Shown here: one piece after another, positions 15,022-26,752 of the stretch
How the letters are laid out: every line of letters begins with the position of its first letter
Position numbering within the stretch: position 1 is the first letter of the stretch
Notes under the pieces: generated by a model
What the model saw: only the letters and a program-made list of their open reading frames with translations
Database searches by the model: none
Told to the model about the DNA's origin: nothing
Translations under genes and position numbers: made by a program
Assembly (NCBI RefSeq): GCF_009914755.1
Contig: NC_060938.1
DNA length: 64,000 nt
Source: the human T2T-CHM13v2.0 reference genome, Homo sapiens
Reading direction: 5' to 3' (one strand)

Positions 15022-15650
15022 GATCTGATTTCATCTAAAGATCGCTTCCACAGCTTGATCTTGTTAAAGTTCTTATACTTTTTATTTTCTTTATTGGATT
15101 CTATAATAATATACTCAACTGCTTTGTATTGTCTTCCCTATGTTGTACCAACCTCCAAAACTAAATATAAAACAAGAAAACTATTTTGAAGGAAAAAGCA
15201 TATTTTATCACAAGCTAATATTGCTAATGTTTATGGGGACACCTGTTTTACAGTAACAAAACAAGGTTTAACTGAATTCTTTCAGTCTTCTTAAAATGTA
15301 CAGCTCAAAACAATAATACAGAAAAGTTGAAAACAGTAAGGAAGAGAATAGCAGGCAAATACTCAACAAAAAAAAGGTAGCATAGATCTATTAATATCAG
15401 AAAAAAGCAGTATTTTAAGGCAAAAGCATTACTAAAGATAAAAAAGGTCACTAGATATGATAAAATGATCCAAATCCAAGAATGAGAGGAATTAGAGACA
15501 AATCCCACAATCATAATGAGAGATGTTAACATCTATTTCTATAGTGATAGGTCAAGCAGACAAAACGATAAAATCAGCCAGGCAGATGGCTAACGCCTGT
15601 AATCCTAGTGTTTTGGGAGGCTGAGGTAGGAGGATCCTTTGAGTCCAGGA
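15022..15650 (+). repeat. Inverted duplication, left copy
   Basis: Reverse complement of ~25810-26752 (minus an Alu); ORFs 15305..15532(-) and 25929..26156(+) are near-identical translations. Confidence 0.95.
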
Positions 15651-17227
15651 GTTCAAGACCAGCCTGGCAACACAGCCAGATCCTCCCTCTACAAAAAATA
15701 AAAAGTAAAAGTCAGCCAAGGGTGATGGCATGTGCCTGTAGTCCCAGTTACTAGGGAGGTTGAGGTAGGAGGATCACTTGAGCCCAGAAGTTCAAAGTTA
15801 CAGTGAACTATGATCCTTCCACTGCACTCCAGTCTGAGTAACTGAGCGATACCCTGTCTCAAAAAAAAAAAAAAAAAAAAAAACCTTCGAACAATCAAGT
15901 TGATTGGCAACTAACCTGACTGTAATACTAACCTGTGGGCCAATATAAACTTCAAAACTCTGAAAAAAGCCAACAAAATTTAAATATTTAACAACATAGT
16001 ATTTAATGTCTGATATCCAATAAGAAATTATTAGACATAGAAAAAAAGTAGCAGGGCCTGGGCGCAGTGGCTCATGCCAGTAATCCCAGCACTTTGGGAG
16101 GCCGAGGCTGGTGGATCACAAGGTTAGGAGTTTGAGGCCAGTCTGGCCAACATAGTGAAACCCCGTCTCTACTAAAAATACAAAAAAATTAGCTGGGTGT
16201 GGTGGTGGGCGCCTGTAATTCCAGCTACTTGGGAGGCTGAGGCAGGAGAATCACTTGAACCTGGGAGGTGGAGGTTGCAGTGAGCTGAGATCGCACCACT
16301 GCACTCCAGCACGGGCAACAGTGCAAGACTCTGTCTCAAAAAAAAAAAAAAAAAAGCAGCAGGCCAGGCGCGGTGGCTCATGCCTGTAATCCCAGCACTT
16401 TGGGAGGCCAAGGTGGGCGGATCACGAGGTCAGGAGTTCGAGACCAGCCTGGCCAATATGGCGAAACCTCGTCTCTACTAAAAATACAAAAATCAGCTGG
16501 GCATGGTGGCACGTGCCTGTCATCCCAGCTACTTGGGAGGCTGAGGCAGAAGAATTGCTTGAACCCCCGAGGCAGAGGTTGCAGTGAGCCCAGATCATGC
16601 CACTGTACTTTAGCCTGGTGACAGAGGGAGACTTCATCTCAAAAAAAAAAAAGAAAAAAAGCAGCAAATTGTGAACCAGAAAATTATATCTATGTAGACA
16701 CAGTTTAATATTAACATTATAATACACAATGTTCAAATATATAAACATTGTATATAGATAGTATATGTCATATATAAATACACACATTTATATTTTTGTT
16801 CCAGTGCTTTTCACCTTGGCTAACTTCAATGTTAATGCCCCAAGAGAGATGATATTGTTTCAGAGTGTTACAGAAAAAAAGATACAGCAAGGTAGGTGGC
16901 TCCAAAATATATTTCATGCTAGATTGGGGAAAAGGGACATCTTCATGGGCTGTAAATTTCTCTCCACTTTTTTTTTTTAATGAGAAATCTCAAACAGGGA
17001 AGACAAATTTTAGTTTAAAAATCTCACTAGTACTACATAGCAGTCTCATCCAAATGCTGGTGAAACTTCTGAACATGATCATTCTAAAAGAGCATTTATT
17101 CTCCCCACACAAATGTCAAGTCTTCTGCTATTAACATCTATTGGGATTGGCATTCTCAATCACCCTTCCTAGTTCCTGGGATATTTCCCATCTACAATGG
17201 GAAGTATGAAGTTATTAATAAGCAGAA

Positions 17228-17557
17228 CAGTGGTTCTCAAATGTCCTGAGACCGGCAGCATCCACATCATCTGGGAATTTATTAGAAATATAAATTATTG
17301 GATTCCATCCACACTTAAAATTTTTTGTATTTTTGGTTGAGATGGGGTTTTACCATGTTAGCCAGGATGGTCTCGATCTCCTGACCTCGTGATCCGCCTG
17401 CCTCAGCTTCCCAAAGTGCTGGGATTACAGGCGTGAGCCACTGCACCCAGCCATCCCGCACTTACTGAATCAGAAACTATAGGAGTAGATTCTAGGAGTT
17501 TGTGTTTTAACAAGCCTTTCAGGTTATTCAAAATCTTGTTCAAATTTAAGAACTACC
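17228..17557. mobile_element. MER5A (hAT-Charlie) interrupted by an Alu left-arm fragment
   Basis: cagtggttctcaaa...tactgaatcagaaact...tttaagaactac termini. Confidence 0.8.
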
Positions 17558-18675
17558 AAATTAGAAAATATTAGTGTACTAGTGGACATTAATGTCATGG
17601 ACCCGGGATCTTTCTGAGGGAATTTTTCAGGAAGATATGAAAAAGAACATAGAACAACTGCAACTAAACAAGAAGAACACCTGGATCTGCAAAAATAGGC
17701 CATCTGAGCCTCGTTGAGAATAGTCATGGGGCAGCTTTCGGTATTACAATGTGCCCTTTCTTTTCTGTCTTTCTTTCCTTCTGTCTTTCTTTTTTACCAT
17801 CTGAGACATGGAGATACGCATATCCTTCTTTGTATTATTGCTACTACTATGGCAAGAAGCACAAAGGAAAGTAGAAAAGAAAAAGGAAGACCTATCTTCT
17901 TTCTTTTTAGAAAAATTGTTTAATAATTTCCAGCTGAAGTGGGTATTTGGTATTTGCTCTTGTCTTTGCATCTCTCCATTCTTCTAACCGTAATTATAAA
18001 TCAGGAGTGTGAGGATGGTAGAATATGAGAATCACCTAGGGAGCTTTATCAGAATATATATCTCCCACACCCTTGCTAACTGAGATGTTGACAGAGCAGT
18101 GTGGGCGGACTAATACATATATGCTAAGAAAACTTCCTGTGATTCCGACCTACTTTTATCCTCACCTCTCCCTACACCCCACCAGTTGTCTTGGCCTTTT
18201 GTCAATGCAGGAGGAACTGTCAGGATCACCGAATTTATCTTCTATCCCCTAGTACTTACTAATATGCACCTACTACAACTTACTGCCATGCTGTGAGATG
18301 TGGGCTCTGTCTTCGAGAATTATTATTATTATTATTATTACTATTACTATTATTTTAAGACTGAGTCTCGCCCTATCGCCCAGGCTGGAGTGCAATGGCG
18401 CGATCTCGGCTCACTGCAACCTCCGCCTCCTGGGTTGAAGCGATTCTTCTGCCTCAGCCTCCCGAGTAGCTGGGATTACAGGTGCCACCATGCCCAGCTA
18501 ATTTTTTGTATCTTTAGTAGAGATGAGGATTCACCATATTGGCCAGGCTGGTCTTGAACTCATTACCTTGTGATCCACCTGCCTCGGCCTCCCAAAGTGC
18601 TGGGATTACAGGCATGAGCCACTGCTCCCGGCCGGGAATTTTATATTGTAATTTACTACACAAAAGAAACAACCA

Positions 18676-24715: not shown

Positions 24716-25077
24716 GTTGCTAAGGTTTGCATGTGTCCCCCAAAAGTTCATGTGTTGGAAACACCCCAAATTAATATGTTGATGGTATTTGGAGGTGAGG
24801 CCTTTGGGAGGTAATTAGGATTAGATGAAGTCATCAGAATGGGGCCTCCATGATGGGATTAGTGGCTTATAAGGAGTGGAAGAGAGACTTGAGCTAGAAG
24901 CATTCTCTGTCTCACCATGTGATGCCTTCTGCCATGTAAGGAAGGCCCTTGCCAGATGCCAATGCCATGTTCTTGGACTTCTCAGTCTTCAGAACTGTAA
25001 GCTAAATAAACCTTTATTCTTTATAAATTACCTGATCTGTAGTATTCAGCTATAGCAACAGAAAATTGACTAAGACA
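24716..25077. mobile_element. MLT1A/MST MaLR LTR
   Basis: tgctaaggtttgcatgtgtcccccaaaagttcatgtgttggaa...gactaagaca. Confidence 0.8.
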
Positions 25078-25809
25078 CATGTTTTGTTTCTTTTTTTTTT
25101 TTTGAGATGGAGTCTTGCTCTTTTGCCCAGGCTGGAGTGCAGTGGCACTATCTCGGCTCACTGCAAGCTCTGCCTCCCAGGTTCATGCCATTCTCCTGCC
25201 TCAGCCTCCCGAGTAGCTGGGACTACAGGCACCCGCCACCGCTCCCGGCTAATTTTTTGTATTTTTAGTAGAGACGGGGTTTCACCGTGTTAGCCAGAAT
25301 GGTCTCGATCTCCTGACCTCGTGATCTGCCTGCCTCAGCCTCCCAAAGTGCTGGGATTACAGGCGTGAGCCACCGCGCCCAGCCGACACATGTTTTGTTT
25401 CTAATATTAATCTTGGATTTGTGAGATATACCCATCCTGGTAATGGGTATATCTTTCTTACATGCTGTCAGCTTCCATTTTCTAACTGAACTTATTTAGG
25501 ATTTTCAATATTAAGATTTTCAATGTTGCTATAATTGTTCCTCTAGTCTTAGATTGTAGTAATATATTGATATATTATGAGATACAGCTTGTCAAATTAC
25601 ACAAAAATAAGACAGAAACTTTGGAGATTGATTAAAATTACACTGAATCTATAGATCAATTTGAGAAGAATTGGCTTTAAAAAATATTGTTTTTCTATAT
25701 CCTTGTTGATTTTATGTATTATGTAAGTATATATGTATTTAAGACAGGGTCTGACTCTGTCGCCCAGGCTGGAGTACAGTGGCATGATCATAGCTCACTG
25801 CAGCCTCAA

Positions 25810-26752
25810 ACTCCTGGGTTCAACTGATCCTCCCACCTTGGCCTCCCAAAACACTGGGATTACAGGCGTGAGCCACCTGCCCAGCTGATTTTATCTTTTT
25901 GTCTGCTTGACCTATCACTAAGAAATAGATGTTAACATCTCTCATTATGATTGTGGGATTTGTCTCTAATTCCTCTCTTTCTTGGATTTGGATTATTTTT
26001 ATCATATCTAGTGACGCTTTTATCTCTAGTAATGCTTTTGCCTTAAAATATTGCTTTTTTCTTATATTAATAGATCTATGCTACCTTTTTTTTGTTGAGT
26101 ATTTGCCTGCTATTCTCTTCCTTACTGTTTTCAACTTTTCTATATTATTGTTTTGAGCTATACCTTTTAAGAAGACTGAAAGAATTCAGTTAAACCTTGT
26201 TTTGTTACTGTAAAACAGGTGTCCCACATAAACATTAGCAATAATGGCTTGTGATAAAACATGCTTTTTCCTTCAAAATAGTTTTCTTGTTTTATATTTA
26301 GTTTTGGAGGTTGGTACAACATAGGGAAGACAATAGAAAGTAATTGAGTATATTATTATAGAATCCAATAAAGAAAATAAAAAGTATAAGAATGGCCAGG
26401 CACGGTGGCTCATGCGTGTAATCCCAGCACTTTGGGAGGCTGAAGCGGGTGGATCACCTGAGGTTGGGGGTTCGAGACCAGCCTAACCAACATAGAGAAA
26501 CCCCGTCTCTACTAAAAATACAAAATTAGCTGGGTGTGGTGGTGCATGCCTGTAATCCTAGCTACTCGGGAGGCTGAGGCAGGAGAATTGCTTGAATCTG
26601 AGAGAAAGAGGTTGCAGTGAGCTGAGATCGTGCCATTGCACTCCAGCCTGGGCAACAAGAGCAAAACTCTGTCTTAAAAAATAAATAAATAAAAAAGTGT
26701 AAGAACTTTAAAAAGATCAAGCTGTGGAAGTGACTTTAGATGAAATCAGATC
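25810..26752 (-). repeat. Inverted duplication, right copy, carrying an extra AluSp-like insertion (26394-26691)
   Basis: Matches 15022-15650 inverted; Alu flanked by TSD aaaaagtataagaa (26379-26392) / aaaaagtgtaagaa (26692-26705). Confidence 0.95.

What the first reader, a model, noticed from the sequence alone, without database searches (positions are those of the whole stretch)
15022..26752. Ancient ~10-kb inversion with duplicated (staggered) breakpoints, datable by Alus
Seen: 15022-~15650 recurs inverted at ~25810-26752. The L1 ORF2 relic at 15305-15577 stops at an AluJ on the left, but in the right copy it continues past the Alu (TSD ataaaatca, then acaaggatatagaa at ~25710-25690). A different L1 5'-region relic read on the minus strand down to 26753 (ctagccctacagtaaaggctattctagac...aagctta) continues on the plus strand at 15882 (ccttcgaacaatcaagttgatt...aatgtctgatatccaat); that continuity rests on my recollection of the L1M consensus. 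Inference: 15882-~25735 was flipped, and a staggered break copied ~0.6 kb to the far end. Both copies share the AluJ insertion point but only the right one has the AluSp-like insertion, which brackets the event in early primate evolution.
Basis: partly seen in the sequence, partly recalled or inferred. Interest (0 to 1): 0.75.

Follow-up and report, generated by a model that had tools for sequence, protein, structure and literature searches.

The report
Old primate inversion with homogenised arms
A 10-kb stretch of non-coding human chromosome 14 lies back-to-front relative to its ancestral order, between two 0.6-kb mirror-image copies that look too alike for their likely age and were probably re-synchronised by later DNA exchange; it is a well-preserved example of an ordinary kind of rearrangement and breaks no annotated exon.

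Summary
The inversion is real. The arms 15022-15620 and 26752-25842 are an inverted duplicate (core 490/505 identical). All three ancestral joins were tested. The L1 5' relic ending at 26762 continues at 15884 in 7 of 7 paralogous loci that carry the second half. The right Alu keeps both target-site copies. An unnamed outside sequence (P0001) runs collinearly across the left border at 15021/15022. Two corrections. The right "AluJ" is a 148-nt monomer; only its first 43 nt resemble the left dimer more than unrelated Alus do (3' parts 77%). The arms differ at 17 of 552 sites where an Alu clock expects about 38 if they predate the right-only AluSp-like insert (P about 1e-4 to 6e-3). Later gene conversion is the likeliest reason, so arm identity and Alu bracket give different ages; a target-site clock was inconclusive. 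The locus is absent from three inversion tables read (41 humans, 612 candidates, gibbon). No primate orthologue could be fetched, so date and one-step versus two-step origin stay open. Known kind, new instance, no function shown.

The parts
14809..15057 (-). Single-copy stretch that crosses the outer border of the left arm; collinear with unnamed outside sequence P0001, so the join of left flank and arm is ancestral
   Evidence: 45/84 identical in translation, E 3e-22 in the window; 7 of 12 codons inside the arm match, the best of about 128,000 windows
15022..15620 (+). Left arm: 280 nt unique DNA, L1 ORF2 relic, first 43 nt of the Alu; empty site for the right-only Alu at 15070-15083
15578..15883 (+). 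Left dimeric J-type Alu with 23-A tail; 5' target-site copy at 15568-15576, no matching 3' copy; left junction lies in or at the end of it
   Evidence: best of 40 scored relatives 78-81%
15884..25706 (.). Inverted segment (about 9.8 kb), intronic to predicted lncRNA LOC105370500, no annotated exon
   Evidence: junction logic; hub annotation
15884..16055 (+). Second half of the broken L1 5' relic (continues past two younger Alus to about 16785)
25716..25885 (-). Right Alu monomer (left-arm-type start, right-arm-type end) with both target-site copies 25894-25886 and 25715-25707: ancestral join of arm and inverted segment
25842..26752 (-). Right arm (inverted duplicate), interrupted by the right-only Alu
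26393..26691 (+). Right-only S-type (AluSp-like, recalled diagnostics) Alu; 11 of 239 non-CpG sites changed, 6 of 22 CpG intact
26753..26761 (-). 9-nt A-rich filler at the right junction, absent from paralogous L1 loci
26762..27390 (-). First half of the broken L1 5' relic

Best explanation
The segment 15884-25706 is inverted relative to the ancestral order and flanked by an inverted duplicate; one staggered break or template switch in early primate evolution likely made both at once, and later gene conversion between the arms likely reset them to 97% identity. Shown: three ancestral joins (left flank to arm; arm to Alu to far end of the segment; the two halves of the L1 5' relic) and two derived joins. 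Inferred: one break was staggered across the arm and its J-type Alu, the other cut the L1 relic with no loss and gained 9 A-rich bases. Inferred, about 60:40: the copy took the whole dimeric Alu to its A-tail (15022-15883) and the right copy later lost one monomer, rather than the left Alu being a chimera with a second Alu. Inferred: the S-type Alu then entered the right arm, and the arms, 10 kb apart, exchanged sequence at least once afterwards. No function is proposed; it is likely neutral.
For: L1 continuity: 7 of 39 loci carry the second half, all 7 carry the first half upstream on the same strand, 5 within 19 nt of exact adjacency; 13 control stretches gave 1 hit, itself part of the relic. 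Right Alu has both target-site copies. P0001 crosses the left border. Arms: 17 substitutions in 552 sites against 38 expected from 38 non-J Alus with base-class rates, Poisson P 1.1e-4, bootstrap 3.5e-4; right-only Alu alone, unstratified, P 0.006. That Alu has no close sibling among 40 scored of 4615 candidates (88-91%). Identity falls 97%, 88%, 77% towards the inner heterology (Fisher P 0.015). Left and right Alu 3' parts share a state seen in only 4 of about 17 other J-type arms. Conversion among neighbouring Alus within about 10 kb is reported (PMC8230782, passages).
Against: No primate orthologue was seen, so no step is dated directly. Mismatches in the core are not clustered (P 0.38), so no tract is visible. 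The target-site clock is inconclusive: 22/252 raw, but about 4% after trimming over-extended calls by eye, close to the arms' 3%; only 15 of 38 non-J Alus entered it. Two of the five differences in the Alu 5' part are one CpG. Free monomers of the right-hand type are common (8 of 12 fetched), so the right element may never have been a dimer. One step and two steps give the same end product (also said in PMC2817401, passages).
Confidence: 0.5

Rival explanations
1. Two steps: the arm plus Alu was first copied in inverted orientation into the L1 5' relic; recombination between the new repeats later flipped the segment, perhaps more than once, and homogenised the arms.
For: Re-flipping through the arms gives a clean insertion between the two L1 halves. 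Excess arm identity shows, if real, that the arms recombine. Validated human inversions have inverted repeats from 140 bp upward (PMC13629690, passages).
Against: Needs two events. No call at this place among 18 chr14 rows for 41 genomes, 612 candidates or 16 gibbon chr14 rows.
Confidence: 0.25
2. Young event without conversion: the rearrangement happened after the S-type Alu was fixed, at about half its age, by an Alu-to-Alu template switch, and the left arm lost that Alu precisely by slippage between its target-site copies.
For: Even 3% divergence with no clustering fits one age. Trimmed target-site clock about 4%. Left Alu could be a chimera: 3' parts no closer than unrelated Alus.
Against: Needs a precise Alu loss, which is rare (recalled). 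The 5' end of a second Alu is missing from the right junction. Alu 5' part already 5/43 different. Gibbon table shows no flip here, which limits how young.
Confidence: 0.12
3. Retrotransposition-coupled: a J-type Alu cDNA primed at the L1 relic invaded the neighbouring Alu, and the break was resolved as inversion plus duplication.
For: A-tail sits exactly on one derived join, an A-rich run on the other, with no L1 sequence lost. L1-made breaks give local inversions and inverted duplications in cells and tumours (bioRxiv 2024.12.14.628481, passages).
Against: No unambiguous target-site copy; the site in paralogues is not a canonical endonuclease target (consensus recalled). The shared 3' state favours one Alu. 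The described events are local, from one break.
Confidence: 0.1
4. No inversion: the L1 pieces belong to different elements and only a small block was transposed.
For: The region holds several old L1 fragments; 2 of 7 paralogues show 136 and 222 nt between projected ends.
Against: All three ancestral joins test positive; a transposition would need further joins inside the segment, and none was sought or seen.
Confidence: 0.03

Closest known systems
Inversions with breakpoint duplications by staggered single-strand breaks (Ranz 2007 and Kehrer-Sawatzki 2005 as described in PMC2817401, passages)
   Same: Inverted duplicate of formerly single-copy DNA at the breakpoints; same one-step versus two-step ambiguity.
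   Different: Only one end is duplicated, 0.6-0.9 kb, and the arms look homogenised afterwards; no outgroup genome seen.
dupINV class of complex structural variant (Collins 2017, PMC5338099, passages)
   Same: Inversion flanked by a duplication on one side.
   Different: Appears old and fixed rather than a segregating variant.
Recurrent human inversions between inverted repeats (PMC3961182, PMC13629690, passages and tables)
   Same: Inverted repeats flank a 10-kb segment; arm size is within the reported range.
   Different: No second orientation is listed; arms 97% identical and interrupted by an Alu.
Non-allelic gene conversion between neighbouring repeats (Aleshin and Zhi as summarised in PMC8230782, passages)
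   Same: Copies about 10 kb apart more alike than their age predicts; distorts divergence dating.
   Different: Here the copies are unique DNA and an L1 relic, with an Alu insertion as internal clock.
L1-mediated local inversion and inverted duplication (bioRxiv 2024.12.14.628481, passages)
   Same: A-tailed element at one junction, little loss at the target.
   Different: No clear target-site copy or endonuclease site; second breakpoint 10 kb away in or beside an Alu.

Membership tests
Staggered-break inversion / dupINV | Inverted duplicate at the breakpoints | tested here: met
Staggered-break inversion / dupINV | Enclosed segment reversed against the ancestral order | tested here: met
   three ancestral joins
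Staggered-break inversion / dupINV | No pre-existing long homology at the second breakpoint | tested here: met
   L1 halves join directly in paralogues; an Alu there cannot be excluded
Staggered-break inversion / dupINV | Duplication and inversion arise on the same branch | not testable with these tools
   no primate genomes held
Recurrent inversion between inverted repeats | Near-identical inverted repeats flank the segment | tested here: met
   490/505 core
Recurrent inversion between inverted repeats | Both orientations seen in humans or apes | tested here: inconclusive
   absent from three tables; arms under 1 kb fall below the inverted-SD source of the 612 list; great-ape and macaque tables unreadable
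Alu-Alu recombination inversion | Chimeric Alu at both junctions | tested here: not met
   right junction has no Alu
Alu-Alu recombination inversion | Chimeric Alu at one junction | tested here: inconclusive
   5' 43 nt shared, 3' parts 77%, one shared subfamily-type state
Retrotransposition-coupled rearrangement | A-tailed insert at a junction | tested here: met
   23 A at 15861-15883
Retrotransposition-coupled rearrangement | Endonuclease site and target-site copy shared by the two junctions | tested here: inconclusive
   3-nt overlap and 9 A-rich bases only
Non-allelic gene conversion | Copies more alike than their minimum age | tested here: met
   target-site clock inconclusive
Non-allelic gene conversion | Visible tracts of identity | tested here: not met
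   P 0.38 for clustering; a tract spanning the whole core would not show
Non-allelic gene conversion | Paralogues cluster by species | not testable with these tools
   no orthologues

The most novel reading that the evidence does not exclude
The 0.6-kb arms have kept recombining for tens of millions of years and the 10-kb segment has toggled in primates, or still does rarely in humans: an uncatalogued recurrent inversion whose repeats were created by an AluJ-era break, possibly an Alu insertion caught in the act. It would stand for a class of short-armed toggling inversions that fall below segmental-duplication thresholds.
Probability: 0.12. Interest if true: 0.6.

Novelty: new member of a known kind. 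Interest (0 to 1): 0.3.

Why it matters
It shows that a small old inversion can be reconstructed from one genome by using paralogous repeat copies as the outgroup, and that identity between breakpoint duplicates can understate age about twofold or more. It gives a cheap test of how short and how far apart inverted repeats can be and still exchange sequence. No gene, exon or annotated regulatory element lies at the breakpoints, so biological consequence is probably small.

Tried and rejected
Chance Alu pairing: rejected, the core is unique DNA plus an L1 relic. Young right-only Alu from an old source: no close sibling among 40 scored of 4615 candidates and 16 of 22 CpG decayed; not exhaustive. 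Coding exon or selenoprotein S relic at 14809-15057: P0001 has a sub-cutoff Pfam hit (E 0.013), but the family search lists no chr14 match to E 10, four window frames have no Pfam hit, and 8 DNA comparisons with stretches of that gene do not beat shuffles convincingly (best 1 of 100). An older L1 ending near 27390 that might continue into 25689 in today's orientation: the two overlap in recalled consensus position and 27385-27720 could not be placed on the ruler loci; left open, given low weight. Target-site clock inconclusive. No Rfam family in 14000-28000. Atlas gave no answer. Papers not held: Porubsky 2020 and 2022, Aleshin and Zhi. Supplements unreadable: ape T2T, macaque Strand-seq; these may list the locus. 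Marmoset T2T passages gave nothing relevant.
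Full report
Observation. A self-comparison and a global alignment show an inverted duplicate: 15022-15620 on the plus strand and 26752-25842 on the minus strand. The core (15070-15577 against 26392-25885) matches at 490 of 505 aligned sites with 5 indels, the outer 47 sites at 45, and the first 43 nt of the Alu at 38. 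After masking Alus it is the only long high-identity self-match in the window. Genome searches with the arm and with 14700-15300 find no third copy. Only the right arm carries the Alu at 26393-26691, with target-site copies on both sides; the left arm is the empty site.

Ancestral join 1, the L1 5' relic. I did not use a recalled consensus. I searched the genome with 26753-27400 and with 15885-16055 and compared both pieces with the loci returned. Of 39 loci examined, 22 carry the first half and 7 the second; all 7 also carry the first half upstream on the same strand. The projected ends lie -19, -11, -7, -2 and +3 nt apart in five loci and 136 and 222 nt apart in two, where the projection spans a long unaligned stretch. 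Three of the seven were found from the second half alone. Thirteen control stretches of 171 nt gave one hit, 16700, which belongs to the same relic. The alignment puts the end of the first half at 26762 and the start of the second at 15884, with three A shared and 9 extra A-rich bases on the right.

Ancestral join 2. The right Alu has the same 9-nt word on both sides (25894-25886, 25715-25707); the left Alu has it only in front. The 14 nt that follow match the L1 continuation in three paralogues by eye, though MAFFT misplaced that short row.

Ancestral join 3. A 51-codon frame across the left border found one match among 1.84 billion representatives, P0001, E 5e-5. It aligns collinearly to 15057-14809 (45/84 identical, E 3e-22 in the window) and to this locus alone in the genome. 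Twelve codons lie inside the arm and 7 match, the highest of about 128,000 windows. I infer that it is a translation of orthologous DNA from another genome. The left flank and arm were therefore adjacent before the event. The ancestral order was flank, arm, Alu, segment reversed, right flank, so the segment is inverted today and the arm duplicated.

The Alus at the inner border. The left element is a dimer with 23 A, the most diverged of 46 full-length Alus in the window (best of 40 scored relatives 78-81%). The right is a 148-nt monomer. They share a three-base state found in 2 of 34 Alu starts in the window, namely these two, so the 5' ends are copies. Their 3' parts are 77-78% alike, no closer than unrelated Alus, with no shared private change that I could separate from subfamily or CpG states. 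They do share one right-arm state seen in 4 of about 17 other J-type arms (my count). Free monomers of this type are common: 8 of 12 best matches fetched, 4 with the same three-base state or nearly so. So either one dimer was copied whole very early and the right copy collapsed (about 60%), or the left Alu is a chimera with a second Alu, old or newly inserting (about 40%). These odds are my judgement.

The age conflict. The right-only Alu differs from the majority of its 16 nearest fetched relatives at 11 of 239 non-CpG sites and keeps 6 of 22 CpG; its best relatives are 88-91% identical. The 38 non-J Alus of the window give per-lineage rates of 96/3660 at A/T and 240/4450 at G/C sites, after 19 variable columns and all CpG columns were dropped and 8 J-like elements set aside. 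Arms separated before the insertion should then differ at about 38 of 552 sites; 17 do (Poisson P 1.1e-4, bootstrap 3.5e-4; with that Alu alone and no base classes P 0.006). Residual subfamily differences may inflate the rates; young Alus in the set deflate them. Against: mismatches are evenly spread (P 0.38) and a target-site clock gave 22/252 raw but about 4% after trimming by eye, on a subset biased to good matches. Conversion of the whole core after the insertion is the simplest reading; precise loss of the Alu from the left arm is the alternative. If the event is as old as the J-type Alu, the outer 47 sites must also have been converted once (2 seen, 9.7 expected, P 0.003).

What is known. 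Table S1 of PMC10150506 (T2T coordinates, 41 genomes) has 18 chr14 rows, none at 47.01-47.02 Mb. The 612 candidates of PMC13629690 have no chr14 coordinate beginning 5279-5282; two known chr14 inversions served as positive controls. Gibbon Table S2 of PMC9712629 (444 events over 7 kb) has 16 chr14 rows, none here; I saw 32 of 74 chr14 places in that file. The hg38 position (about 52.803-52.815 Mb) uses a recalled offset of 5.792 Mb, which agrees within about 2 kb with one inversion listed in both builds. Ten full-text searches found no description of the locus; the only one naming the neighbouring gene returned one unrelated review. Great-ape and macaque tables could not be read and may list it; public chain alignments would show it.

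Papers seen. Passages: PMC2817401, PMC3961182, PMC5338099, PMC8230782, PMC12058530, PMC13041921, bioRxiv 2024.12.14.628481. Passages and supplementary rows: PMC10150506, PMC13629690, PMC9712629. Nothing readable beyond the header: PMC7605249, PMC11312596. Ranz 2007, Kehrer-Sawatzki 2005 and Aleshin and Zhi are cited only through those passages. Alu and L1 subfamily names and ages are recalled, except that Alus arose about 65 million years ago with J oldest (PMC8230782).

Verdict. A real, apparently unreported, old inversion with a one-sided breakpoint duplication: a new member of a known kind. The feature worth following is the mismatch between arm identity and the Alu clock. Interest 0.3.

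Noticed in passing
window 23746-23850 and 25583-25687: 105-bp direct repeat of an L1 ORF2 piece, 92/105 identical; the copy at 25583 is out of consensus order and starts about 20 nt beyond the right Alu's target-site copy. An older local templated duplication, possibly from the same event.
   Followed up: partly
window 14809-15057, minus strand: Single-copy stretch conserved in another genome (P0001) with a mostly open purine-rich frame followed by a donor-like site; no Pfam family over cutoff, selenoprotein S link not supported. May be a dead exon or conserved non-coding element.
   Followed up: partly
L073-L084: Free hybrid Alu monomers (left-type start, right-type end) are frequent among the best matches of the right monomer, several with the same three-base state; perhaps a small monomer subfamily.
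   Followed up: no
window 27385-29400, minus strand: A second, older L1 ORF2 relic abuts the 5' end of the broken L1 relic; its 3' continuation was not found.
   Followed up: partly
window 16039-16666: Two S-type Alus in tandem with nested A-rich target-site copies inside the L1 5' relic.
   Followed up: no
window 18350-18988 and 27742-28391: Closely spaced inverted Alu pairs (about 10 and 35 nt apart), which could form hairpins in the predicted lncRNA intron.
   Followed up: no
window 14121-14174; 49171-49318; 61429-61469 and 63798-63838: Perfect 26-nt tandem duplication; a 56-nt-period tandem repeat; a 41-nt direct repeat at 95%.
   Followed up: no
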